51,253 bases of DNA from sequence record NC_105436.1; one strand, given 5' to 3'. Within the stretch, counting starts at the first letter, position 1. Every line of letters begins with the position of its first letter. Made by a program: the position numbers and the translations under genes. The DNA comes from a phage. Shown here one piece after another: positions 1,571 to 51,214 of this stretch. The notes beneath the pieces are model-generated. The model was not told the origin of the DNA. It did not search any database and worked only from the letters and a program-made list of their open reading frames with translations.

Positions 1571-2686
1571 ATGAAAAATGTAAAAATTACAGATGAGCAA
1601 TTCAAGATCGAACGGGCGGCAGGTAAGACATATAAACAGATCGCTCAAGAGTACGGAATGAATGTGAGAAGCGTCGAGCGTCGCGCGGCGCGCCTTGCAA
1701 AACAAGGACAGCTATCAACCATCGGAGCGCCTGGTTTTGGTGTTCATGGTGAGTCAGTAATGACTGACAAAGAAGGAAATATAATCCTCAAGTGGACCAA
1801 AACCAGCAAGGATAAAGAGCAATTAGAGGCATTGATGCGCGCAGCAATGGAGGCGTTTAGCGAGGAAGTGCCGCGATTAGATCCAGTTCCATTGCAGGAG
1901 CGTAATTATAATGAAACGCTTTCATTGTATCCGATCTTTGACATGCACTTAGGCGCTATGGCCCATAAGCACGAATGCGGCGAAAATTGGGATACTGCGA
2001 CGGCAGAGCGCGTTATGAATAACTTTATCGACTATGCTTTGATGTGCGCGCCGGACAGCGAAAAGGCTGTTATCCTGATTGGTGGAGATATGCTGCATAG
2101 CGACGGCCTGGAGGCGGTGACACCTGCAAGCGGTCACGTACTTGATCAAGATAGCCGATATGCAAAATTGGTTTACGTTGCAATACGTGCAATGCGCCGC
2201 GCAATTAATAAAATGCTGTTAAAGCATAAACATGTTGAGGTCCAGATCGTAGAGGGGAATCACGACCAATCAGGAATGATTTGGCTACGCGCAGCAATGG
2301 CGGCAGCATATGAGAACGATCCGCGCGTTTACGTTGATGTTTCTCCTCGCGTTGTTCACCACACGCAATACGGAAAAACTTTCCTTGCGTACCATCACGG
2401 GCACACAGTGCGTAAACCTGAGACTTTGCTAATGATGTGCGCGTCAGATTGGCGGGAGGACTTCGGAAACTCAAAAACGATGTATGCGCACGTAGGGCAC
2501 TGGCATCACCAGACTGTGACGGAAACGTCGCTTGGCATCGTGGAGGTGCATAGCACCCTGGCGGCAAAAGACGCATACGCCGCGCGCGGTGGCTGGAGAT
2601 CTCGACGCCGTGCAGCGGTTATCATTTACGACAAAGAGCATGGAGAAGTTGGGCGATTTGTTCACTATCCAGAAATGATGAATTGA
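1571..2686 (+). CDS. HTH domain fused to calcineurin-like metallophosphoesterase
   Basis: Start taken at ATG 1571 (MKNVKITDEQ); N-terminal helix-turn-helix-like segment (KTYKQIAQEYGMNVRSVERRAARLAKQ); phosphoesterase motifs D-x-H (FDMHLG), GDxxD (GGDMLHSDG), GNHD (EGNHDQ), and His clusters HHGH and GHWHH. Confidence 0.65.
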   Translation: MKNVKITDEQFKIERAAGKTYKQIAQEYGMNVRSVERRAARLAKQGQLSTIGAPGFGVHGESVMTDKEGNIILKWTKTSKDKEQLEALMRAAMEAFSEEVPRLDPVPLQERNYNETLSLYPIFDMHLGAMAHKHECGENWDTATAERVMNNFIDYALMCAPDSEKAVILIGGDMLHSDGLEAVTPASGHVLDQDSRYAKLVYVAIRAMRRAINKMLLKHKHVEVQIVEGNHDQSGMIWLRAAMAAAYENDPRVYVDVSPRVVHHTQYGKTFLAYHHGHTVRKPETLLMMCASDWREDFGNSKTMYAHVGHWHHQTVTETSLGIVEVHSTLAAKDAYAARGGWRSRRRAAVIIYDKEHGEVGRFVHYPEMMN

Positions 2687-2733
2687 TGAATTTTTATTTA
2701 AATCAATGACAAATTAAATCAAAAACTTGCAAA

Positions 2734-2761
2734 GGGGCGGCGTTTGTCGCCTCTTTTTTTT
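2734..2761 (+). terminator. rho-independent terminator candidate
   Basis: GC-rich stem GGGGCGGC/GTCGCCTC followed by T8. Confidence 0.55.
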
Positions 2762-2833
2762 GTTTAAATTTTTATCATGTGCGTTTATTATGCGGTTAAT
2801 ATATTGACTTTTAATTAATATGGAGCATTAAAA

Positions 2834-3049
2834 ATGAAAGATTTTATTAACGCAGCTACCGCCGGATCTGGCGGTTCATCTATCGCAAGCGCCGCTACAG
2901 GTCAGTTAACCATTGCTATTGCCAGCTTTGTTTTAATGGCTGCATTCGGTGCGTGGGGCGCTTACCTTCGCTGGCGTGATAGTAAAAAATTCCACGAGGC
3001 GATAGAAAAAGGTGATATTCAAAAAGCTATTGAGATCAGGGGCAAGTAA
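2834..3049 (+). CDS. holin
   Basis: 71-aa protein with hydrophobic transmembrane segment and charged C-terminus, immediately upstream of the endolysin with TAATG overlap. Confidence 0.7.
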
Positions 3050-4442: not shown

Positions 4443-4764
4443 CGCCCATCTCCCCTATTCTAGCCATATCCCTGATCCAGTCGTTGCGCATACCATCCAG
4501 GCTATACAATTCGAATCCGAAAGGCCGCTTTGACGATCCTTTGGACCAGTATTTACCGCAGACCCCATCTATATAACCAGCCGTCATCATTCTTGCGCAA
4601 AATTCCTTAGATGCAAGGCTGGCGAACATTCGCGGCGTAAGTCCGGCGGCCCGTGCGAGCCGCTCGCATTCTCTATGCTGATAGATAAATTTGGCTATGT
4701 GCTGCCTGTTAAACCAGTCGTATGACTCACACCATTTATACAGATCAAGCAAAAACATAATCAT
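4369..4764 (-). CDS. hypothetical protein
   Basis: 131-aa ORF, ATGA overlap with the upstream ATPase gene stop. Confidence 0.5.
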   Translation of the reverse strand: MIMFLLDLYKWCESYDWFNRQHIAKFIYQHRECERLARAAGLTPRMFASLASKEFCARMMTAGYIDGVCGKYWSKGSSKRPFGFELYSLDGMRNDWIRDMARIGEMGDDELFQAKANRQDLEALRRKFNIT

Positions 4765-6341
4765 CCCAGCAGTATTGGATTGACAAAAATAACACCATTA
4801 ATCACACAAACATAATTTCTTTCTTCCAGCATTGGCAGCAAGTGCCCTTCTATCCTCTTCATTACGCCAGCTTGACCAACGAAAGGTTTTACCTTTCTCG
4901 CTGATTCGTACAGTGCGCGAATATTCAGAATCCCTTTATTAGCCTTGCCGTGTCTAGTGATCAATTCAATCAATTTACCCATTTCAGCATCATCACCAGC
5001 ATAACCAGAAGCATTGGCGGCGCTAATGTATGTTTTGCTCAATTCCTGAAACATGATCAGCGCCTCTTGCATTGTTTCCACGTCGATCTCTTTCGACTTC
5101 TGCGGGTATCCGGCAGGATTAAACCAGTTGCGGATAACATGCAGTACGGAAGCAAGCCTGATCACCTGTTTATCCATTTTACCCAGCGCACCGCGTAACA
5201 TTGTATGAGAATACTTTCCGCCGTCTGCAAGATGCGGTTCCATATCCTGGCGAGCAATGTTGAGCACTCGCATAGCTGAACGGCTTATTTTCAGCGATAC
5301 ATTTGATTCGCTCATGATGTTATGCACCAACTGATAATATTGGGCCTTCAATTCAGAATCCACCGCCTCATAGGTAGAATCACCATTTTCATCAATGAAT
5401 GAGCGACGGCCTAAGAATGATTCCTCGCGGACCAACAAAAAGCGCTCACTCACACCGATACCGCGCGATCCAGCGTCCATGATTCCGCTTATCGTTTCAT
5501 CCTGGGCTATAACGCTCATACATCCAAGCGCGCGAAAACTCATGTTATTGTCAGCATTAGCACGGGCAATTGATACGTGACCATTATCCCACGCCTTAAG
5601 CACTAGCTCACTGTTAGTCTTCCTTTCGCTATTTGCATAGGTCAAGCCTAACAGGCTGTTAATACTTGTTGCTTCGTCAGATATTACGGCAAAGTTACCT
5701 TGCTTGTTGTTGATTTTCGCCAAGCCTTCTGGAGTTGTATCTGAAACAGGGAAAGTTATATCACACATCTTTTCCAGCTTCTCCTCCAGATCCTCTTTTT
5801 CCTGGTATAGAGATTCCATATCAGCGCCTGACCTTTCGCTTTTCATCTCCTTTGAAAGACCTGCCAACTTTGCCTGTATTTTCTTTCTTTCCTTGCGGCG
5901 TTGCTCGTTGATCTTCTCAACTTCCGCAATCATCGGAGCAATAGCCATGCTGTTGATCGCAGATTTACCAGTTGATGGCGGCTGGCTTGTAACGACGTAA
6001 AGCGCAGTCGGCTGATCTGTTCCGTGATAGTCAACCGTAAAGCGTCCAAGCATAGCGGCAGAAATGCAGCCGATAAAGTGCATGTAAGCCGATGATTCAG
6101 GGAATTGAACGGATCGCGCAATGCTGCGTGATAGCTTGCCGACAACATCAATATCATTACCAAGAGAAATTACGGGGTAGCGATCGTGACCGCTATTTAC
6201 ATCCTTCACGTCGCCCCAAAAGCTGGACGACTGGCGATAGCCGTTAGCCTGAATTGATACGCGAACTGGCGAAAGGTTCTGGCTTTCAGCCATAGCGATT
6301 ATTTGCTGTGGAGTTAATTTGTTCGTTTCTAATGAAAACAT
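4761..6341 (-). CDS. putative P-loop NTPase (replication-associated?)
   Basis: 526-aa ORF with Walker A-like PPSTGKS and Walker B-like FAVISDE; coiled-coil K/E-rich stretch; family assignment (DUF3987-like) is a guess from motif pattern. Confidence 0.4.
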   Translation of the reverse strand: MFSLETNKLTPQQIIAMAESQNLSPVRVSIQANGYRQSSSFWGDVKDVNSGHDRYPVISLGNDIDVVGKLSRSIARSVQFPESSAYMHFIGCISAAMLGRFTVDYHGTDQPTALYVVTSQPPSTGKSAINSMAIAPMIAEVEKINEQRRKERKKIQAKLAGLSKEMKSERSGADMESLYQEKEDLEEKLEKMCDITFPVSDTTPEGLAKINNKQGNFAVISDEATSINSLLGLTYANSERKTNSELVLKAWDNGHVSIARANADNNMSFRALGCMSVIAQDETISGIMDAGSRGIGVSERFLLVREESFLGRRSFIDENGDSTYEAVDSELKAQYYQLVHNIMSESNVSLKISRSAMRVLNIARQDMEPHLADGGKYSHTMLRGALGKMDKQVIRLASVLHVIRNWFNPAGYPQKSKEIDVETMQEALIMFQELSKTYISAANASGYAGDDAEMGKLIELITRHGKANKGILNIRALYESARKVKPFVGQAGVMKRIEGHLLPMLEERNYVCVINGVIFVNPILLG

Positions 6342-9734: not shown

Positions 9735-9785
9735 TTGTCGATGCGTGTAATGTACAGGAATACGAGGATTGAGTTTTAACAAAAA
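9735..9785 (-). promoter_or_regulatory. box cassette (minus strand)
   Basis: Box + 22-nt spacer + TACATT + conserved leader. Confidence 0.55.
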
Positions 9786-9792
9786 GTGCTAT

Positions 9793-10492: not shown

Positions 10493-10746
10493 TTTTTCTT
10501 CTCCTGCAATAAGCAAACATCATTGATAAAATCAGCACGGCCCTTAATGTTGCTGATGTGGAACGTCTTTTCAGCGTACAGGCCATCACCTTCAATCACG
10601 ATCATTACGCGAGTCGGTTTATTCACGGGCGCACACGAAAAGAGTGGTCGCACCGGAAGAAATTTAGTAGCCACATCCAGGTTAGCCCTGGCGGCCCTGC
10701 AAAATGCCTCCGCCAGATCCAAATCATTTTCGGTAATCACCGCCAT
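10480..10746 (-). CDS. hypothetical protein
   Basis: 88-aa ORF, overlapping start with the upstream gene stop. Confidence 0.45.
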   Translation of the reverse strand: MAVITENDLDLAEAFCRAARANLDVATKFLPVRPLFSCAPVNKPTRVMIVIEGDGLYAEKTFHISNIKGRADFINDVCLLQEKKKCWM

Positions 10747-11018
10747 TACTTCTTGATCTCCTCACTGATAAATTTCAGCACCTGACGCAAGAAAACCTCG
10801 TTGTTGATAGTCGCTGGCAATTCTTCTTTCACTTCTTGCGGCAGATAGATATTGCCGTGCCAGGTCAAGCAATCGTAGTTGATACGATAAGAGCAAAGCC
10901 ACTCGCAATCGTTATCTGCTTCCCAAATACAGAGTTGCAGAACATCGCCAAAATCTTCAACAGTCAGATCCAGACCGTGACGCTTAGCGAAATTGAAAGT
11001 GGTTTTGCTGATGTTCAT
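10746..11018 (-). CDS. hypothetical protein
   Basis: 90-aa ORF, first gene of the leftward block, with box cassette and leader upstream. Confidence 0.5.
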   Translation of the reverse strand: MNISKTTFNFAKRHGLDLTVEDFGDVLQLCIWEADNDCEWLCSYRINYDCLTWHGNIYLPQEVKEELPATINNEVFLRQVLKFISEEIKK

Positions 11019-11047
11019 TGCTATCTCCTGAGCGGTTCGTTTCGATG

Positions 11048-11097
11048 TGTGTAATGTACCCGATCAGGCGGCCTGAGTTTTAACAAAAAGTGCTATT
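11048..11097 (-). promoter_or_regulatory. box cassette (minus strand)
   Basis: Box + hairpin TCAGG/CCTGA + TACATT at 22-nt spacing + leader CATCGAAACGA. Confidence 0.55.
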
Positions 11098-11127
11098 TGA
11101 CGGTTAGCGCCAGGATTGTGATCGAAA

Positions 11128-11215
11128 TAATCAGAAGTAATCATTCGTAATCAAATCACGTCAAAATGATGATTGCCTTTGCAAATTTGATGAGAAAAGT
11201 AATCACGTTTAATCA
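11128..11215. repeat. iteron-like array of five TAATCA repeats
   Basis: TAATCA at 11128, 11138, 11148, 11200 and 11210, with 10-bp phasing within each group; in the divergent non-coding region. Confidence 0.5.
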
Positions 11216-11651
11216 TTGGTTGCAGGGGAGATAGTGAAACCTTCCCCTCTTGCCTCACTTTTCCGCCTGGCTGTCAGTGGTTGTTGTCTTTTGTTCACCC
11301 CTGTTACCGATTTCAGGCGGCGTGTTTCCGCGCGGTTTTCCGGTGTAGCGAAAACGGAAAAAACAAAGAAAATCCTCTATAATACATTGAAAATAAAGAT
11401 TATTTATTTATATATATCTATAATGTTTTCTTTTTGTTCTCACTGTTACAGTGCTTTTTGTTGGGTGTGGTGTGGTTGTGTGTTGGTATATATGGATAGT
11501 TGCGCGCGCGGCGGATTGCATATGTATATATACTTTTTCCGGCGGATTGCGTTAACAGCGTGAACAGAAAAATAACAGCCCTGAAATCAATAACTTGCGC
11601 ATGATTTTGTAGTTTTTCGATATTGGTAACGTTTTGAATACAACAAAAACA

Positions 11652-11680
11652 TTGACACGCACCAAATAGCTTTTATAATG
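11652..11680 (+). promoter_or_regulatory. consensus sigma70-type promoter (TTGACA-17-TATAAT)
   Basis: TTGACA at 11652-11657, 17-bp spacer, TATAAT at 11675-11680; 30 nt upstream of the first rightward gene. Confidence 0.7.
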
Positions 11681-11710
11681 CGCCAACAGTCAACAACCGG
11701 AGGAAAGGAA

Positions 11711-12175
11711 ATGGAACAGAAAACCACTAAGGACTATTGCGATTGGCTTCGCGAGCTTGGTCGCCGCCTGGCTAGTGGCGATATTGAAGAGTATAAAATG
11801 TCACTAATTGACCTGGCCGGAATGTTAAGCGGTGACGACTGCTACAAGATCACGCGCAGTTCATCCTACAGCCGGACCATTATCAACCGCGTTCCAGAAG
11901 TAAGGGCCGCAGGTCGGGTAAGTATCAAGGTCGAGGAAACGGAAGATGATAAATTTTACGTTTTCCGCATGGTCCACGAATCGAAAAGGAAAATCATCAC
12001 ACCCGAAGAATTGCCAGCCATCAAGGCAAGGGCGATCAAAAAGTTTGCCGATCGCTTACTGGCAGCAATCCCGAACATCGTGGACCTGGAAGGGGATAAA
12101 CTGGCTGGAGCTTGTGAGGGCGTAAGCCGCTACCAGGATATGATCCGCGAAATCATCAAAGAGGAGGAGCAATAA
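11711..12175 (+). CDS. hypothetical protein (first gene downstream of consensus sigma70 promoter)
   Basis: Start at ATG 11711 with RBS GGAGG; sits 30 nt downstream of the TTGACA-17-TATAAT promoter. Confidence 0.55.
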   Translation: MEQKTTKDYCDWLRELGRRLASGDIEEYKMSLIDLAGMLSGDDCYKITRSSSYSRTIINRVPEVRAAGRVSIKVEETEDDKFYVFRMVHESKRKIITPEELPAIKARAIKKFADRLLAAIPNIVDLEGDKLAGACEGVSRYQDMIREIIKEEEQ

Positions 12176-12435
12176 TGAAAAAGGCATTAATCGGCGTTTT
12201 GGCGGCAATGGCACTCCTGACCGGATGCGAAAAGGCATCAGAATCAACGGTTGTCGTAGGCGTGGAGTCAGATTTCAAAGTCGGTCGCCTGTTCACTGTT
12301 GACGGATGCACAGCATACAGATTCTATGATAACGGTCGCGCGATCTATTACACCAATTGCAAAGGCGCAACGGATAGCACGTACAACAGCGGAAAGAACG
12401 TAATGCACCAGCAAGTCACAACAGATATTAAATAG
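12175..12435 (+). CDS. putative lipoprotein
   Basis: Signal peptide with lipobox LTGC; 86 aa, two further Cys in the mature part. Confidence 0.6.
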   Translation: MKKALIGVLAAMALLTGCEKASESTVVVGVESDFKVGRLFTVDGCTAYRFYDNGRAIYYTNCKGATDSTYNSGKNVMHQQVTTDIK

Positions 12436-12475
12436 CACTTTTTGTTAAAACGCCAGGCGCAAAGCCTGGCATAAT
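12431..12475 (+). promoter_or_regulatory. box cassette
   Basis: AATAGCACTTTTTGTTAAAAC + hairpin GCCAGG/CCTGGC + CATAAT. Confidence 0.55.
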
Positions 12476-41124: not shown

Positions 41125-41403
41125 TTACCCCCAAAAAGTATATATATATCTTGAGTCAGATCCAGAAAGTCCGCTCCATGTAACGGTATCACCACTTACA
41201 CCTAAACTTGGAGCGCCTGGATCGCCTCCGCGCCACGAACTCATTCCAACATATATTGCTTTCAACGACTTACCTGGCGGCCTGTTTGAGTAGGTCTTAC
41301 TGCCAGATGATTGAGTAAATTTATCCAAGAAAAAAACTGGAGTTAAAAGGCCAGTAACATTTCTACCTTGCTCATCATATATTGCATACCCATATTCAGC
41401 CAT
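41125..41403 (-). CDS. hypothetical protein
   Basis: 92-aa ORF, Gly/Ser-rich. Confidence 0.4.
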   Translation of the reverse strand: MAEYGYAIYDEQGRNVTGLLTPVFFLDKFTQSSGSKTYSNRPPGKSLKAIYVGMSSWRGGDPGAPSLGVSGDTVTWSGLSGSDSRYIYTFWG

Positions 41404-41677
41404 TTTTGCACCTCAAATCAATGAATTTTCTTTCATCTTGCCAACGGTTGATAAATTTAACTTCTTTATTGTCAACGCTCAACCTGTATTGCTTTTGGCT
41501 GAATCTGTTTTCGCGGACCGCATTAATTTTAACTTCATGGAATCCGTTAACAGGGAATGTTTTAACGTTAAATTTTGCCGTGCAATCGATCTCCTTGAAG
41601 TTGCCAGTAGGCGAAGAAGAACATCCGGTCAGAGCGGCTACGGTGGCTATAACTGCGATTAATTTTTTCATCTTCAA
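41396..41677 (-). CDS. putative lipoprotein (candidate superinfection-exclusion factor)
   Basis: Signal peptide with lipobox LTGC; mature part with 3 Cys; RBS AAGGAG; box cassette upstream. Confidence 0.55.
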   Translation of the reverse strand: MKMKKLIAVIATVAALTGCSSSPTGNFKEIDCTAKFNVKTFPVNGFHEVKINAVRENRFSQKQYRLSVDNKEVKFINRWQDERKFIDLRCKNG

Positions 41678-41702
41678 TACTCCTTAGTTGTTGTTGACTG
41701 TA

Positions 41703-41746
41703 ACTATACACGATCCGGCAAGCCGAGTTTAGCAAAAAGTGCTACT
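41703..41746 (-). promoter_or_regulatory. box cassette variant (minus strand)
   Basis: Minus strand AGTAGCACTTTTTGCTAAAC + 21-nt spacer + TATAGT; upstream of the lipoprotein gene. Confidence 0.5.
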
Positions 41747-42114
41747 TGTTATTTTTTGTTTTCCGGTGTTATCTGATTTAAGACGGCGTAAATTTAGCGC
41801 AAATTTTAGCCAACATAAGAACAATAAATAATCAATAAAATAGGTATATACATATAAAATCAATAGTTTATTTATTTATGTATGTGTATTTGTTTTTTCT
41901 TGTTATCTGTGTTTCTTGTGGTTTTGGTTGTTTGTGGTGATTTTTCTTTCTGAGTATCTGTATGTGCCATCATTCATGTGTATGTATATAATCCGGCGTA
42001 TCTGAGAGAACAAGGGAACAAGAAAAATAACATATATTAATCATTAACTTACGCGTCAAATTTGTTTTATTGCCATCTTAGAACGTTTAGAAAACAGAAA
42101 AAACAAAACAACTA

Positions 42115-42142
42115 TTGACTAAATCAACCAAATGGCTACAAT
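42115..42142 (+). promoter_or_regulatory. near-consensus sigma70-type promoter (TTGACT-16-TACAAT)
   Basis: TTGACT at 42115-42120, 16-bp spacer, TACAAT at 42137-42142; upstream of the exonuclease/Erf/SSB operon; shares ACCAAAT.GC spacer core with the 11652 promoter. Confidence 0.65.
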
Positions 42143-42172
42143 GCACACACAAAGCAACGAGGAGCATTAAAG

Positions 42173-43228
42173 ATGAGTGATTTTAACGCCTACACTAGCG
42201 AAGAAATGAGCAACGAGCTTTATCATGATCCTAACGCATGGACGGCTGAATATGTCAGCGGTTCCAGCCTGGCGGAGATTTACAGCACTTGCCCGGCGTA
42301 CTGGAAGTACAAGCCTCGCCAGGAAACCAAAGCACTTGTTTTCGGTACGCAGTCGCATACCAATTTTGAAAGCAAGGAGTTATTCGAAAAAACATATCGC
42401 CGCGCACCGTCGCAGGATGATTTTAAAGATCTGATCACAAGTCAAACGGCGTTGGCCTCAAAGCTGAAATCTTTTGGCCTGAAAGGTACAACGGGTAAGC
42501 AATACCCCGAATTGCTGGAAATGCTGTACAAGTGCGGTGAGGATCTCAATGTATGGTGGCTTATCGAAATGATGGCAGAATGCCAGGCCGCAGCGGACGG
42601 CGTGCAGTTAATCGACGCGAAAGATTATGATGCCTGTGTAGCGATGCGGCGCGTACTTGAGGCAATACCTGAGCATAATGCTTGCATGAATAGCCCAACC
42701 GCGCAGCGTGAAATGTCAATATTCGGGATCATCAATGGCGTAAAAGTTAAAGTGCGCCTTGATCACGTTGACGTAAACAAGGATGTAAAGGCCACAATCA
42801 TTAACGGTTACGACGAAAAAGGCCGACCGATTTATGAAGAAGTCATCTATCCAGAAGCTGTGATTATCACTGACTATAAAACAACGGTTAGCGCAAATCC
42901 GGTTGACTTCCAGCGCCTGGCTTACAATCACGGCTATTATCTCAAAATGGCTTTGCAGCATGATTTATTTAAAAAGGCGTATCCAGACGAGGAAAGGCCA
43001 GTAATTGTGAGATTGCTTGCTCAAGAGAAGAAAGAGCCTTACTTGCCGCTCGCATTCCGCATGAACATTGAGCAATTGAAGATCGGTCGCATCCAGTACA
43101 TGAGCGTGATCAACAAGTTCAACGTTTGCCAACAGTTAGATGAATGGCCTTCGTATGCAAACGGGCAACCAGAAATTGATCTTGATACTCCTGATTGGGT
43201 ACGCGCTCAATTCAGGCAGTATCTATGA
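42173..43228 (+). CDS. PD-(D/E)XK recombination exonuclease
   Basis: D ... (D/E)xK arrangement (RLDHVDV ... ITDYKTT); first gene of the recombination module. Confidence 0.6.
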   Translation: MSDFNAYTSEEMSNELYHDPNAWTAEYVSGSSLAEIYSTCPAYWKYKPRQETKALVFGTQSHTNFESKELFEKTYRRAPSQDDFKDLITSQTALASKLKSFGLKGTTGKQYPELLEMLYKCGEDLNVWWLIEMMAECQAAADGVQLIDAKDYDACVAMRRVLEAIPEHNACMNSPTAQREMSIFGIINGVKVKVRLDHVDVNKDVKATIINGYDEKGRPIYEEVIYPEAVIITDYKTTVSANPVDFQRLAYNHGYYLKMALQHDLFKKAYPDEERPVIVRLLAQEKKEPYLPLAFRMNIEQLKIGRIQYMSVINKFNVCQQLDEWPSYANGQPEIDLDTPDWVRAQFRQYL

Positions 43229-47210: not shown

Positions 47211-48140
47211 TTATAGCAGTGATTCAGGCTTGTAGATTTTTCTTTCTACACCCTGTTTAAAATTATCGTTAACAGGCATCATTATGTCAAGCCCTCTTTC
47301 CTCTGCCGCGATTATCACATCACGATCATCTTTCCGGCATACTACGCGCATTCTTCTTTCTCCTTTATATCTATGCGCAACCATTTCAAGATTTGAAGGT
47401 GTAAAGCAGGCCCACACCTCTTGACCAGTTGATAAATGAACATGTTGGGAGTCAACCCAATCAAGGCACAAATAGATCGTCTTATCCGTGCTACCTGTTT
47501 TAACAACAGATCCGCGCGTGTAGTCGCGAGCTAAAAACCAATCCTTTCCATCCTCATCAATGAAAAGCACGTTACACATTTCATCATCCAGCCCGTCATC
47601 ATGCACCAGGTGACAAGGTAGCGCGTGAATGTATCGACCATTCTTGACGCCGCAATCATAATGACAATCTTCCGGCGGATATATCCCCTCATAAACGCTT
47701 AAGGGTGTGCGATCGAATTTTAATGTTTTTGCCATCACTTTTTCGCAGCATTCATGACTTGCCTGTTTCCCGAACGAGTAGCCAGAAGAACGTGAAGCGC
47801 GCTTGTTTGCTCTGATCCTGTAATCTTGTGGCACTTTGCCGAGAAAGCGGCCCAAAATGTTGATGGCCTCGCTGTAAGGTTCGCCAGTTAATTTCATTAA
47901 CCAACCGATCCCCGTGTCGTTACCGCATACGTTGCAGATAGCGCCGCCGTCGCCCTCTTCATTTAGCTTATCGGTCCATCTAAAACGATCCTTACCGCCG
48001 CAGTGTGGGCAAGGCTGATGCTTTTTGTTGAAAACATCGCTATGCAGTCCGCAAATGCTTTGTAGCGCTTCACGCCATAACCCCTTCATATATGGCAAAA
48101 CGTCTTCTTTCTGATAGGTCATAAAGTTTTCAGTATTCAT
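47211..48140 (-). CDS. DNA primase (zinc-ribbon type)
   Basis: Cys4 zinc ribbon CPHCGGKDRFRW ... CNVCG; start at ATG 48140. Confidence 0.6.
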   Translation of the reverse strand: MNTENFMTYQKEDVLPYMKGLWREALQSICGLHSDVFNKKHQPCPHCGGKDRFRWTDKLNEEGDGGAICNVCGNDTGIGWLMKLTGEPYSEAINILGRFLGKVPQDYRIRANKRASRSSGYSFGKQASHECCEKVMAKTLKFDRTPLSVYEGIYPPEDCHYDCGVKNGRYIHALPCHLVHDDGLDDEMCNVLFIDEDGKDWFLARDYTRGSVVKTGSTDKTIYLCLDWVDSQHVHLSTGQEVWACFTPSNLEMVAHRYKGERRMRVVCRKDDRDVIIAAEERGLDIMMPVNDNFKQGVERKIYKPESLL

Positions 48141-48152
48141 AGCAACCTCAAT

Positions 48153-48187
48153 AAAAAAGCCCAGCAAATATTATCATTTCGCTGGGC
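48153..48187 (-). terminator. terminator-like hairpin (minus strand)
   Basis: Minus strand GCCCAGC...GCTGGGC stem + T6 between the HTH gene and primase. Confidence 0.45.
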
Positions 48188-48194
48188 CTTATCA

Positions 48195-48671
48195 TTAGCT
48201 ATTCGTGCTGTTATCACCTTTGTAGAATCGTCCGCCTGGTTCGTAGTCTGAATTTTTGACTACGCGCAACATTTCGTATTTGTCGCAACGTGTAGTAAGA
48301 GGCTTGCCGTTAGAATCAAACCGCAGATCTGGACGACAAAACGAGGCGCGGTATCCTTTGCATCCATTATATTTGTAGTCGTTATGCACCTTTTGTGCTC
48401 CAGCGGCTGAAATCATACCACGCTTTCGCCACTGGTTAACGACTTGCTGAGATACGCGCAGACGTCGAGCCATAGCAGGAACACCGCCGTAATACTCGAT
48501 CAGAATGTCAAGGCGAGATTTCAGGCTTGCTTTTACCTCATCTCGCAGGATAAGAAATCCGGTTCGGTGTTTTCGTGGCTTTTTGTCTTTACCTCGTCGC
48601 GTTCCGTTGTTACCGTTAATAGTGCGCTTGTCGATCTCACCCGTAGACACTGCAATTCGTGCATCTTTCAT
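48195..48671 (-). CDS. putative HTH DNA-binding protein
   Basis: Helix-turn-helix-like segment (GGVPAMARRLRVSQQVVNQWRKRG); Cys-containing C-terminal region; divergent from the helicase gene. Confidence 0.45.
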   Translation of the reverse strand: MKDARIAVSTGEIDKRTINGNNGTRRGKDKKPRKHRTGFLILRDEVKASLKSRLDILIEYYGGVPAMARRLRVSQQVVNQWRKRGMISAAGAQKVHNDYKYNGCKGYRASFCRPDLRFDSNGKPLTTRCDKYEMLRVVKNSDYEPGGRFYKGDNSTNS

Positions 48672-48680
48672 CTAGTCACC

Positions 48681-48726
48681 TCATAGCATTTTTTGTTAAA
48701 ACAGTTTATTGTAATGAGTCTATTAT
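48681..48726 (+). promoter_or_regulatory. box cassette upstream of helicase
   Basis: CATAGCATTTTTTGTTAAAAC + 22-nt spacer + TATTAT. Confidence 0.55.
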
Positions 48727-48758
48727 ATACTCCAAATGGCATTTTTTAAAGGTTTAAG

Positions 48759-50756: not shown

Positions 50757-51175
50757 TGGCTATAACTGATAAAGGCGATTATCTTGAGTTTTACGAAAGA
50801 GATCCAACCGACACGAGAAGGGAAGTTAATCACCAGATAGATAGTTTTCAGTGGTTGACTTATGCTCATCCTTATTTGCTGGCGTGGCATACGGTAAACG
50901 AGAATGAGAAGTCTAAAGCAACGGCGATGATTGATCAGCAGTCAGGCTTGGTTAAGGGTGTAAGCGATTTCATCATCCTGATTGGTTTAAACGGAAAATA
51001 CCCATTTGCAGCGATTGAGATCAAGCGAGTTAATAAATCAGGCAAGGGGAAAGCATCACCAGTCAGCGATGAACAAAAGGCTTTTTTGCGTCGAGTTCGC
51101 AGCTTAGGAGGATTCGCTGCGGTCGCCTACGGATTTAATCAGTTTAAGTTGGCTATTGAATACATGCTTAAATAG
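50756..51175 (+). CDS. VRR-NUC domain nuclease
   Basis: PD-(D/E)XK-like core (SDFIIL ... AIEIKR) in a 139-aa protein directly after the helicase. Confidence 0.6.
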   Translation: MAITDKGDYLEFYERDPTDTRREVNHQIDSFQWLTYAHPYLLAWHTVNENEKSKATAMIDQQSGLVKGVSDFIILIGLNGKYPFAAIEIKRVNKSGKGKASPVSDEQKAFLRRVRSLGGFAAVAYGFNQFKLAIEYMLK

Positions 51176-51214
51176 CACTTTTTGTTAAAACTGGCGCGAT
51201 GGATTGCGCCATAA
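51171..51214 (+). promoter_or_regulatory. box cassette at window end
   Basis: Box + hairpin GGCGC/GCGCC + CATAAT; followed by GGAGAAATGA at the very end of the window. Confidence 0.55.

What the first reader, a model, noticed from the sequence alone, without database searches (positions are those of the whole stretch)
11330..11700. Two paralogous GT-rich non-coding islands, each ending in a near-consensus sigma70 promoter
Regions 11330-11700 and 41750-42170 share an AT-rich segment with TTTATTTATTTAT, a G/T-rich tract (GGGTGTGGTGTGGTTGTGTGTTGG versus TTGTGGTTTTGGTTGTTTGTGGTG), short direct repeats flanking an ATGTATATATA-type segment, and then TTGACA/TTGACT-16/17-TATAAT/TACAAT with a shared ACCAAAT.GC spacer core. 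They drive the rightward early block and the recombination operon respectively. At 370-470 bp they are unusually long non-coding stretches for this compact genome. They could be immediate-early promoter regions with upstream enhancer-like elements, origins, or sources of non-coding RNA.
Basis: seen in the sequence. Interest (0 to 1): 0.55.

Follow-up and report, generated by a model that had tools for sequence, protein, structure and literature searches.

The report
Duplicated origin-like DNA module in T1-like phage
This T1-like coliphage has two old copies of a roughly 370-bp non-coding DNA module: short repeats in opposite orientations around the most easily melted DNA of the genome, next to a strong early promoter. 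The module looks most like a replication origin, which has never been located for this classic phage family.

Summary
The window is a Warwickvirus (Drexlerviridae, T1-like). Regions 11288-11679 and 41745-42142 align colinearly over about 370 bp (score 102; shuffles 23±3). The same two-copy arrangement is significant in T1, TLS and haarsle.

Neither island holds a conserved ORF, an Rfam match or a conserved RNA fold. The module nevertheless evolves more slowly than 4-fold sites of the adjacent recE. Its anatomy:
- arrays of DAACA pentamers in inverted orientation (9 of the 16 paired sites in the genome);
- the two least stable DNA segments of the genome;
- in this subfamily, the two most G+T-skewed tracts;
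- GC boxes and an IHF-like site;
- about 80 bp further on, a sigma70 promoter. These promoters correspond to TLS P01 and P51, two of only three sigma70 promoters reported there.

T1 uses a different repeat (TGTAAC) in both of its islands, which points to a phage-encoded binding protein. The phage encodes a predicted MCM-like AAA+ helicase with a C-terminal winged helix, a P4-alpha-type primase and a Cro-like HTH protein.

Best reading (inferred, about 0.45): iteron/unwinding-element origin modules, like SaPI ori, P4 ori/crr or SPP1 oriL/oriR. Main rival (about 0.3): an upstream control region of the immediate-early promoters.

The parts
11019..11710 (.). Island 1: the whole divergent intergenic region, between the leftward gene 10746-11018 and the rightward gene 11711-12175.
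   Evidence: No ORF is conserved across relatives.
11053..11096 (-). Leftward DR-type promoter. The 19-nt repeat ATAGCACTTTTTGTTAAAA lies at 11078-11096, and a -10-like TACATT follows 19 nt downstream at 11053-11058.
11120..11215 (.). Part found only in island 1: five TAATCA copies phased at 10 bp (11128, 11138, 11148; 11200, 11210) and one GATC. This position is syntenic with the place where the T1 and TLS records start (their pac end).
   Evidence: The function is inferred.
11225..11249 (.). GC-rich hairpin GGGGAGATAGTGAAACCTTCCCCTC, found only in island 1. A similar hairpin is present in relatives.
11288..11308 (-). Left inverted-repeat arm IR-L, CTTTTGTTCACCCCTGTTACC. It holds two DAACA-type sites on the minus strand and contains TGTTCACC.
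11316..11324 (.). GC box GGCGGCGTG, left of the AT-rich core.
11375..11434 (.). AT-rich core. It is the second least stable 60-bp duplex segment of the window (z 4.7) and contains TATAAT and TTATTTATTTAT.
   Evidence: Sequence-specific conservation is shown.
11434..11448 (-). Inner pair of DAACA sites on the minus strand (TTGTTCTCACTGTTA).
11456..11495 (+). G+T tract (93% G+T over 40 nt). It is one of the two most G+T-skewed 40-mers of the window.
11509..11550 (.). Direct repeats CGGCGGATTGC (two copies) flanking ATATGTATATATAC.
11551..11578 (+). Right inverted-repeat arm IR-R, GTTAACAGCGTGAACAGAAAAATAACAG, with three sites on the plus strand.
11585..11597 (+). Perfect match to the IHF consensus (AATCAATAACTTG), lying in a conserved block.
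   Evidence: The statistical support is modest.
11652..11679 (+). Sigma70 promoter TTGACA-16-TATAAT (12 of 12), equivalent to TLS P01.
41678..42172 (.). Island 2: the whole divergent intergenic region, between the Cor-like lipoprotein gene 41396-41677 (minus strand) and the RecE-like exonuclease gene 42173-43228 (plus strand).
41703..41745 (-). Leftward DR-type promoter. The repeat lies at 41727-41745, and TATAGT follows 18 nt downstream.
41745..41774 (-). IR-L, CTTGTTATTTTTTGTTTTCCGGTGTTATCT.
41784..41790 (.). Left GC box CGGCGTA. A direct copy lies at 41994-42000.
41823..41882 (.). AT-rich core. It is the least stable 60-bp segment of the window (z 4.8) and contains an IHF consensus match at 41858-41870.
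41890..41914 (-). Inner DAACA sites on the minus strand.
41910..41949 (+). G+T tract (93% G+T over 40 nt).
41976..42004 (.). ATGTGTATGTATATAAT followed by the right GC box CGGCGTATCTG.
42006..42032 (+). IR-R, GAGAACAAGGGAACAAGAAAAATAACA.
42039..42051 (+). IHF-like block AATCATTAACTTA (12 of 13). It aligns with the island 1 site and is conserved in relatives.
42092..42105 (+). A-rich pair of AACA sites directly upstream of the -35 hexamer.
42115..42142 (+). Sigma70 promoter TTGACT-16-TACAAT, equivalent to TLS P51. It faces recE, erf and ssb.
4761..6341 (-). Candidate trans-acting factor: a DUF3987 helicase predicted to be an MCM-clade AAA+ ATPase with a C-terminal winged helix.
   Evidence: Binding to the repeats has not been tested.
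48195..48671 (-). Alternative candidate binder: a Cro/YdaS-like HTH protein of 158 aa. In TLS its gene is served by the third sigma70 promoter (P57).
47211..48167 (-). Primase homologous to the N-terminal primase part of P4 alpha (zinc ribbon plus Toprim region).

Best explanation
Each island carries one copy of an ancient, protein-binding, non-coding DNA module. I read it as a replication-origin-type element physically coupled to an immediate-early promoter.

Proposed mechanism. A phage-encoded sequence-specific protein binds the short DAACA-type repeats, which lie in opposite orientations on the two flanks. The best candidate is the MCM-like AAA+ helicase with a C-terminal winged helix. The Cro-like HTH protein is the alternative. 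The DNA between the flanks then melts. It is the most easily melted DNA in the genome and, in this subfamily, is followed by a G/T-only tract that cannot form hairpins. The helicase and the P4-alpha-type primase are loaded there, and host polymerase does the synthesis. The neighbouring strong sigma70 promoter, the leftward DR promoter and an IHF-like bend would help opening through negative supercoiling and DNA bending. The two copies could act as two origins, or as an origin plus a cis helper or roadblock, as in P4 ori/crr or SPP1 oriL/oriR.

Shown here: the paralogy, purifying selection, absence of coding and of RNA structure, the repeat architecture, the duplex-stability and strand-skew extremes, lineage-specific repeats, the promoter motifs, and the predicted fold of the helicase.

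Inferred: protein binding, melting, and any role in replication.
For: - Paralogy is significant in four genomes: z 29 (window), 13 (T1), 14 (TLS) and 10 (haarsle).
- The module is present at both syntenic positions across Drexlerviridae: 174 and 155 phage records give matches.
- It evolves more slowly than 4-fold sites of the adjacent recE: 95 vs 79%, 67 vs 44%, about 60 vs 47%.
- Paired DAACA-N3-5-DAACA sites: 9 of 16 in the window lie in the islands, which are 2.3% of the sequence (shuffles give 4.2 genome-wide). The orientation pattern is the same in both islands. In haarsle 12 of 17 lie in its islands.
- The outer arms are inverted repeats, 90% complementary against 37-55% when slid, with some changes on both sides.
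- The AT-rich cores are the two least stable 60- and 100-bp segments of 51 kb. The G/T tracts are the two most skewed 40-mers.
- T1 has a different repeat, TGTAAC, with 9 of its 24 genome copies in its two islands (p 4e-9). This argues for a phage-encoded binder rather than a host one.
- The primase is homologous to the N-terminal part of P4 alpha (E 8e-16). The P4 record annotates ori and crr repeats as TGTTCACC. TGTTCACC and GTGAACAG occur in the island 1 arms.
- The published SaPI ori is defined as penta- or hexanucleotide iterons, at least two on each side pointing in opposite directions around an AT-rich centre, bound by the winged helix of a self-loading SF3 or MCM-like helicase (PMC9371898).
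- SPP1 uses two origin copies (PMC3485210).
- No origin has been found for T1-like phages (PMC11447400; PMC7718038).
Against: - There is no experimental evidence of initiation at these sites.
- The helicase gene is not adjacent to either module, unlike SaPI and P4. It lies 5 kb from one and 36 kb from the other.
- The AT-rich core lies between two arrays of the same orientation. The change of orientation falls at the G/T tract and TATATA segment, so the symmetry differs from that of the SaPI ori.
- Many positions of the AT-rich core are invariant, which a pure unwinding element would not need.
- Spacing to the sigma70 promoter is conserved (about 75-85 bp, with an IHF-like block in between). 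That fits a transcriptional role equally well.
- No homologue of the P4 alpha DNA-binding domain was found.
- The covariation between the arms is modest and could arise from shared ancestry.
- The GC-skew minimum at island 1 simply follows gene orientation.
- The G/T tract is absent from the T1 group.
Confidence: 0.45

Rival explanations
1. The module is an upstream control region of the immediate-early promoters. The repeats would be operator or activator sites for the phage Cro-like HTH protein (or another early protein). An IHF-induced bend and AT-rich curved DNA would bring the bound protein to RNA polymerase, to boost the two main sigma70 promoters at first and shut them off later. The duplication would then parallel the paired operator regions of lambda.
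For: - The module is always attached, in one orientation and at conserved spacing, to a sigma70 promoter.
- An IHF-like block lies between the repeats and the promoter.
- A-rich AACA pairs abut the -35 hexamer.
- TLS has only three sigma70 promoters, and two of them are these.
- The phage encodes a Cro/YdaS-like HTH protein whose gene is served by the third sigma70 promoter.
- Positions in the AT-rich core are conserved as sequence, not only as composition.
Against: - The arrays lie 75-370 bp upstream and do not overlap the promoter.
- The region around the third sigma70 promoter (48672-48758) has no such arrays.
- About 370 conserved bp, the extreme duplex instability and a hairpin-free G/T tract exceed what promoter control usually needs.
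- Transcriptional control and an origin function do not exclude each other.
Confidence: 0.3
2. The islands produce a non-coding RNA, either a small RNA or a long structured leader.
For: - A fully conserved TATA(A/T) lies in the AT-rich core, and a small hairpin with a T run sits at 11441-11462 in island 1.
- Conserved non-coding sequence by itself is compatible with an RNA.
Against: - No Rfam match at the gathering threshold or at E up to 5, apart from chance snoRNA-like hits.
- The consensus fold of 12 relatives is -6.7 (plus strand) and -4.3 (minus strand) kcal/mol over about 400 columns, with a covariation term of about -0.3. The only long-range helix is the inverted repeat.
- The hairpin at 11441 is not conserved.
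- No promoter-like site (at least 9 of 12) lies in the AT-rich cores; the only internal site, 41964-41992 in island 2, is not conserved in relatives.
Confidence: 0.05
3. The shared module is the packaging (pac) recognition site.
For: The T1 and TLS records start inside the equivalent of island 1. The T1 record marks 1-2800 as the terminal repeat. The TLS pac site was mapped by restriction digests.
Against: - Those starts fall in the left part found only in island 1, in lineage-specific phased repeats about 110 bp to the left of IR-L, and not in the shared module.
- Island 2 lacks that part.
- Per the TLS paper, a single submolar pac fragment marks the packaging start.
Confidence: 0.05
4. The module is a relic of a small mobile element, like a MITE with terminal inverted repeats, and has no function for the phage.
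For: It is about 290 bp bounded by imperfect inverted repeats of 28-40 bp, and there are two copies per genome.
Against: - Both copies sit at the same two syntenic positions throughout the family.
- They are under purifying selection.
- There are no further copies, and no copy in 5,426 E. coli genomes or 72,556 plasmids.
- The repeats also occur inside the element, not only at its ends.
Confidence: 0.03

Closest known systems
SaPI/PICI replication origin with a self-loading Rep helicase (PMC9371898)
   Same: - Short penta- or hexanucleotide repeats, at least two on each side and in opposite orientation, around an easily melted AT-rich region.
- The element encodes an AAA+ helicase (SF3 or MCM-like) with a C-terminal winged helix.
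- A separate or fused primase.
   Different: - Here the module is not next to the helicase gene.
- It exists in two copies.
- It has extra inner arrays, GC boxes and a G/T tract, and is joined to a sigma70 promoter.
- Binding and melting have not been tested.
Satellite phage P4 ori plus crr, bound by the alpha primase-helicase
   Same: - Two separated cis regions share the same repeats in both orientations.
- The repeat core TGTTCAC(C)/GGTGAACAG is nearly the same as the sites in the island 1 and TLS arms.
- The window primase is homologous to the N-terminal part of alpha.
   Different: - No homologue of alpha's helicase or of its C-terminal DNA-binding domain was found.
- The T1 lineage uses TGTAAC instead.
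- The match is to a 7-8-mer and could be coincidence.
Bacillus phage SPP1 oriL and oriR (PMC3485210)
   Same: - A virulent pac-type siphovirus with two copies of an origin-binding region.
- Per that paper's abstract, the fork might stall at the initiator bound to the second copy (oriR), and replication then restarts by recombination-dependent replication.
- Here the second copy lies directly upstream of recE, erf and ssb.
   Different: - The proteins and sequences are unrelated.
- The roles of the two copies here are unknown.
Promoters P01 and P51 and the 21-nt direct repeats of phage TLS (PMC11447400)
   Same: The same loci in a relative. The sigma70 promoters at the right end of each island and the DR at the left edge are already described.
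   Different: That paper does not describe the shared upstream module. It states that no iteron-like repeats or origin could be found.
Paired operator regions OL and OR of lambda-like phages (from general knowledge)
   Same: - Two paralogous non-coding regions, each with an early promoter.
- A phage-encoded Cro-like HTH protein.
   Different: - Here the sites lie far upstream and do not overlap the promoters.
- The phage is virulent.
- The module includes the least stable DNA of the genome.

Membership tests
Iteron/unwinding-element origin of a self-loading AAA+ helicase (SaPI ori type) | Short repeats, at least two on each side, pointing in opposite directions | tested here: met
   DAACA pairs lie on the minus strand on the left and on the plus strand on the right in both islands. 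Nine of the 16 pairs in the genome are in the islands. The outer arms are 90% complementary.
Iteron/unwinding-element origin of a self-loading AAA+ helicase (SaPI ori type) | AT-rich, easily melted region between the repeat sets | tested here: met
   The cores are the two least stable 60- and 100-bp segments of the window. They are 83-92% AT in 56 of the 57 related island sequences examined.
Iteron/unwinding-element origin of a self-loading AAA+ helicase (SaPI ori type) | The element encodes a helicase-initiator whose winged helix binds the repeats | tested here: inconclusive
   An MCM-clade AAA+ fold with a C-terminal winged-helix topology is predicted. Binding to the repeats cannot be tested with these tools.
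Iteron/unwinding-element origin of a self-loading AAA+ helicase (SaPI ori type) | Origin located immediately next to the rep gene | tested here: not met
   The helicase gene is at 4761-6341. The modules are at about 11.3-11.7 kb and 41.7-42.1 kb.
Iteron/unwinding-element origin of a self-loading AAA+ helicase (SaPI ori type) | Replication starts there, or the element confers replication on a plasmid | not testable with these tools
   This needs marker-frequency analysis or plasmid assays.
P4 ori/crr | Type 1 repeats TGTTCACC in two separated cis regions | tested here: inconclusive
   P4 repeats were confirmed from the record. The window has one exact TGTTCACC and one GTGAACAG in island 1. Island 2 has GAGAACA and GGGAACA variants. 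T1 uses TGTAAC.
P4 ori/crr | Alpha protein with a C-terminal origin-binding domain | tested here: not met
   Only the primase part of alpha has a homologue. Nothing in any window ORF matches the helicase or C-terminal parts.
Sigma70 promoter | -35 and -10 hexamers with 16-18 bp spacing, conserved in relatives, upstream of a gene | tested here: met
   12 of 12 at 11652-11679 and 10 of 12 at 42115-42142. Both are conserved in the alignments and are listed as P01 and P51 in TLS. Transcription starts have not been mapped.
Structured non-coding RNA | Rfam match, or a conserved secondary structure with covariation | tested here: not met
pac site of T1-like phages | Coincides with the mapped start of the packaging series | tested here: not met
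   For the shared module: the T1 and TLS record starts fall in the left part found only in island 1. The ends of this particular phage are not testable here.
MITE-like mobile element | Terminal inverted repeats together with variable or multiple insertion sites | tested here: not met
   Inverted repeats are present. However, the two positions are fixed across the family, and there are no copies in hosts or plasmids. Target-site duplications were not examined.

The most novel reading that the evidence does not exclude
T1-like phages replicate from a dual-origin system loaded by their own MCM-like self-loading helicase. One module (island 1, next to pac) fires theta replication. The second (island 2, directly upstream of recE, erf and ssb) acts as a second origin or as a protein-bound roadblock that switches replication to the recombination-dependent, concatemer-forming mode. 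The immediate-early promoters are wired to the same DNA. This would locate the long-missing origin of the classic phage T1. It would also give a bacterial-virus model of origin recognition by an MCM-type helicase.
Probability: 0.2. Interest if true: 0.7.

Novelty: new member of a known kind. Interest (0 to 1): 0.5.

Why it matters
T1 is one of the original T phages, yet recent genome papers on its relatives state that no origin or iterons could be found. These two modules give precise, testable candidate sites and two candidate binding proteins, one of them a predicted MCM-like helicase with a winged helix.

If the origin reading is confirmed, it would explain how these widespread, fast-growing contaminant and therapy-candidate phages start DNA synthesis, and how that start is tied to immediate-early transcription. 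If the control-region reading is right instead, the modules define how the only strong host-type promoters of the family are regulated.

Either way, the 'hypothetical proteins' annotated inside these regions in several GenBank records are probably spurious.

Tried and rejected
- **Chance resemblance of AT-rich DNA:** rejected by shuffle tests.
- **Hidden small genes:** rejected. ORFs differ in strand, frame and length among about 55 relatives.
- **Known RNA family or conserved RNA fold:** none found.
- **DnaA boxes:** not enriched (40 found, 50 expected).
- **IHF consensus:** only weak statistical support genome-wide (7 found, 4.2 expected), although one block is conserved.
- **GC-skew minimum at island 1:** not used as evidence, because skew follows gene orientation.
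- **Homology of any window protein to the P4 alpha helicase or origin-binding parts:** none.
- **Cro-like protein as a homologue of the P4 alpha winged helix:** no. It is a Cro/YdaS-type HTH.
- **Copies of the module in E. coli genomes or plasmids, as satellites or parasites:** none.
- **Co-evolution of the two arms within a phage, compared across phages:** no clear excess (15.3 vs 14.5).
- **The 21-nt DR and the iterons as sites of one protein:** they share TTTTTGTT in this lineage, but not in T1, so I treat them as separate.
- **Chi-like, Z-DNA or G-quadruplex readings of the G/T tract:** considered by eye and dropped. There is no Chi octamer, no regular alternation and no conserved G runs, and the tract is missing in T1.
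- **Literature searches for a mapped T1 origin or transcription map:** nothing usable.
Full report
**What the window is.** Both islands and their flanks match, at 95-100% identity, Escherichia phages of the genus Warwickvirus (Drexlerviridae, Tempevirinae), such as JLBYU07, tonnikala and SECphi27. These are T1-like virulent siphoviruses of about 51 kb.

**Position of the islands.**
- Island 1 is the whole intergenic region 11019-11710. It lies between a leftward block of small early genes (starting with 10746-11018) and a rightward block (starting with 11711-12175).
- Island 2 is 41678-42172. It lies between leftward Cor-like lipoprotein genes and the rightward recE-erf-ssb operon.
- Both are therefore divergent regions.

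**Check of the observation.**
- The two regions align colinearly over about 370 bp (11281-11651 with 41745-42105). The local score is 102, against 22.9 +/- 2.7 (maximum 34) for 500 dinucleotide shuffles.
- Other intergenic regions of the window score 17-38 against either island.
- The two islands of T1, TLS and haarsle are also significantly similar to each other within each genome (z 13, 14 and 10).
- The duplication therefore predates the divergence of the subfamilies examined (Tunavirinae and Tempevirinae). It is not kept alike by recent gene conversion: window island 2 finds a higher-identity, though shorter, match in island 1 of other phages than in its own island 1.

**The islands are non-coding but constrained.**
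- No ORF of 30 aa or more keeps its strand, position or length across 14 island 1 and 43 island 2 homologues. The 'hypothetical proteins' annotated inside the islands in JLBYU07 are therefore unlikely to be real.
- The module is nevertheless more conserved than 4-fold degenerate sites of the adjacent recE: 95 vs 79% in a close relative, 67 vs 44% in Hanrivervirus, and about 60 vs 47% in TLS.
- The alignments show blocks of invariant columns along the whole 400 bp.

**It is not a structured RNA.**
- Rfam gives nothing at gathering thresholds for the whole window. At E up to 5 in the islands it gives only chance snoRNA-like matches.
- RNAalifold on 12 diverse island 2 homologues gives -6.7 kcal/mol (plus strand) and -4.3 kcal/mol (minus strand) for about 400 columns, with covariation terms near -0.3.
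- The only long-range helix predicted is the pairing of the two outer arms.

**Anatomy, from left to right.** Coordinates are given as island 1 / island 2.
1. A leftward copy of the 21-nt family repeat ATAGCACTTTTTGTTAAAA (11078-11096 / 41727-41745).
2. In island 1 only, a stretch of about 190 bp. It holds five TAATCA copies phased at 10 bp and a GC hairpin (11120-11249).
3. The outer arm IR-L (11288-11308 / 41745-41774).
4. A GC box, GGCGGCGTG / CGGCGTA.
5. The AT-rich core (11375-11434 / 41823-41882).
6. An inner pair of repeats on the minus strand (11434-11448 / 41890-41914).
7. A G/T-only tract (11456-11495 / 41910-41949).
8. A TATGTATATA segment with a second, direct copy of the GC box.
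9. The outer arm IR-R (11551-11578 / 42006-42032).
10. An IHF-like block (11585-11597, perfect WATCAANNNNTTR / 42039-42051, 12 of 13).
11. About 75-85 bp after IR-R, a sigma70 promoter (11652-11679 / 42115-42142).

**Quantitative features.**
- The two AT-rich cores are the least and second least stable 60-bp and 100-bp duplex segments of the 51-kb window (z 4.8 and 4.7). The two G/T tracts are the two most G+T-skewed 40-mers (0.93 each; mean 0.50, sd 0.09).
- Paired DAACA-N3-5-DAACA sites number 16 in the window, and 9 lie in the islands, which make up 2.3% of the sequence. Shuffled genomes give 4.2 sites in all. The orientation pattern is the same in both islands: minus, minus, core, minus, minus, G/T tract, plus, plus. 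In haarsle, 12 of 17 sites lie in its two islands.
- IR-L and IR-R are inverted copies of 28-40 nt. Across 12 phages, 90% of cells are complementary, against 37-55% when the partner is slid. Twelve cells have changes on both sides, against 6.9 +/- 1.9 expected (3 of 500 shuffles). This level of covariation can also arise from shared ancestry, so it is only supportive.
- Across relatives the AT-rich core is near-universal (83-92% AT over 60 nt in 56 of the 57 island sequences). The G/T tract is found throughout Tempevirinae and is absent in the T1 group.

**The repeat differs between lineages.**
- In T1, the sites in both islands are TGTAAC/GTTACA. Nine of the 24 genome copies lie in its two islands (p 4e-9), and GTAACA and TAACAC behave the same way.
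- Tempevirinae use G(A/T)GAACA or ATAACA types.
- A repeat that changes between lineages but stays shared by both islands of one genome points to a phage-encoded binding protein rather than a host factor. This step is an inference.

**Promoters.**
- The island 1 promoter is the only 12 of 12 match to TTGACA-N16-18-TATAAT in the window. The two 11 of 12 matches lie inside genes; the six other 10 of 12 matches were not placed.
- The published re-annotation of TLS found only three sigma70-like promoters: P01, P51 and P57. P01 and P51 are the homologues of the two island promoters. P57 serves the Cro-like regulator and primase genes.
No transcription starts have been mapped.

**The family direct repeat is part of a second promoter class.**
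- The pattern occurs 22 times, against 2.6 expected, always in the direction of transcription.
- In 17 of 20 copies a -10-like hexamer starts exactly 18-19 nt after the repeat. A small hairpin often lies in between, and in 4 of the 20 copies a conserved CATCGAAACGA leader follows.
- The TTGTTA inside the repeat is 22 nt from the -10, too far for a normal -35. These promoters probably need a phage factor (inference).
- The TLS paper lists the function of this repeat as an open question.

**Relation to pac.**
- The T1 record begins inside its island 1 equivalent and marks 1-2800 as the terminal repeat.
- The TLS record, whose pac site was placed by restriction mapping, begins in a run of GATTTGA-type repeats about 110 bp to the left of its IR-L.
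- In the window, the matching place is the TAATCA-repeat stretch 11120-11215, which island 2 lacks.
- The extra length of island 1 is therefore best explained as a packaging-recognition region. The shared module is something else.

**Candidate trans-acting proteins.**
- The 158-aa protein at 48195-48671 is a Cro/YdaS-type HTH protein and is 58% identical to T1 ST23.
- The primase at 47211-48167 is homologous to the N-terminal primase part of P4 alpha (E 8e-16). Nothing in the window resembles alpha's helicase or C-terminal origin-binding part.
- The DUF3987 'helicase' at 4761-6341 was modelled from 28 homologues (pLDDT 87.9, pTM 0.86). Its last 80 residues have the helix-strand-helix-helix-strand-strand order of a winged helix.
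- Foldseek puts MCM2-7 and archaeal MCM subunits on top (E 2e-5).

**Comparison with known systems.**
- SaPI origins are described as 6-12 penta- or hexanucleotide iterons with an AT-rich centre. At least two iterons lie on each side and point in opposite directions. They are recognised by the C-terminal winged helix of a self-loading SF3 or MCM-like helicase (PMC9371898). The window meets the DNA features and, by prediction, the protein fold. It fails the 'next to the rep gene' feature.
- P4 has two separated cis regions, ori and crr. Both are annotated with TGTTCACC repeats. The same 7-8-mer occurs in the island 1 and TLS arms, but the match is short.
- SPP1 has two origin copies. Replication starts at oriL; per the paper's abstract the fork might stall at the initiator bound to oriR, and restart is recombination-dependent (PMC3485210). 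Here the second module sits directly upstream of recE-erf-ssb.
- Papers on TLS and SU57 report that no origin or iterons could be found in T1-like genomes. The T1 record carries no origin feature.

**Weighing the readings.**
- The origin reading accounts for the inverted repeat arrays, the extreme duplex instability, the hairpin-free G/T tract, the lineage-specific repeats, the two copies and the replication proteins the phage encodes. Every functional step is inferred.
- The control-region reading accounts for the fixed orientation and spacing to the promoters, the IHF-like block and the sequence-specific conservation in the AT-rich core. It does not explain why the third sigma70 promoter lacks the arrays, or why so much unstable DNA is kept.
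- The two readings are compatible with each other.
- The module is absent from 5,426 E. coli genomes and from 72,556 plasmids. With its fixed positions, this argues against a mobile element.

**Verdict.** I file it as a new member of a known kind (an iteron plus unwinding-element module, probably an origin) rather than a new mechanism. Interest is moderate.

Noticed in passing
window, 20-22 sites, e.g. 12432-12450 (+), 9774-9792 (-), 51172-51190 (+): The 21-nt family repeat ATAGCACnnnTTGnTAAAA looks like the upstream half of an unusual promoter class. In 17 of 20 copies a -10-like hexamer starts 18-19 nt after it. A small GC hairpin often lies in between, and a few copies are followed by a conserved CATCGAAACGA leader. 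The TTGTTA inside the repeat is 22 nt from the -10, so a phage activator is likely needed. The 2024 TLS paper lists the function of this repeat as unknown.
   Followed up: partly
window 11120-11215: Five TAATCA copies are phased at exactly 10 bp (11128, 11138, 11148; 11200, 11210), with a GATC at 11120. They sit where the T1 and TLS records start (their pac end). Relatives have different short repeats at the same place (TLS GATTTGA, haarsle ATTCC/GGAAT, T1 GATTAC). This is a candidate recognition site for the small terminase subunit.
   Followed up: partly
window 11225-11249: A GC-rich hairpin, GGGGAGATAGTGAAACCTTCCCCTC, lies between the TAATCA repeats and the module. A similar hairpin with a different sequence is present in Hanrivervirus relatives. 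No T run follows it, so it is not an ordinary terminator.
   Followed up: no
[not shown]
   Followed up: partly
L001 3218-3577; L002 3330-3571 (GenBank OK272485 JLBYU07_32, _81, _82); window 11216-11563: The 'hypothetical protein' genes annotated inside both islands in some GenBank relatives are not conserved in frame, strand or length across the family. They are probably annotation artefacts.
   Followed up: yes
search results (records MG0656xx): Between 9 and 18 records labelled 'Campylobacter phage' (host Campylobacter jejuni) match this coliphage's islands at roughly 72-92% identity. Their genome sizes (about 47-50 kb) are typical of T1-like phages. The host label may be wrong, or the records may be contaminants.
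   Followed up: no
window about 11468 (query position 450): Several Warwickviruses (Sip, MikeNSara, BEK26, JK16, tiwna, EC167) match island 1 at about 85% only up to the end of the AT-rich core, then diverge completely. A mosaic recombination junction seems to lie at the G/T tract.
   Followed up: no
window 10746-11018 (-): The 90-aa protein to the left of island 1 (phrog_6147, function unknown) has relatives at 45-65% identity in viral contigs of 19-165 kb, sizes that do not fit the about 50-kb T1-like genomes.
   Followed up: no
window 2655-2854: The third least stable stretch of the genome lies just upstream of the ORF 2834-3049 and downstream of the ORF 1421-2686. It contains TTTGTTCAC and an IHF consensus match (2717-2729).
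   Followed up: no
L046 and relatives, left flank of island 2: In TLS-like phages the left flank of island 2 has no leftward DR promoter. The module instead follows a terminator-like hairpin of plus-strand genes. The module therefore does not depend on divergent transcription.
   Followed up: partly
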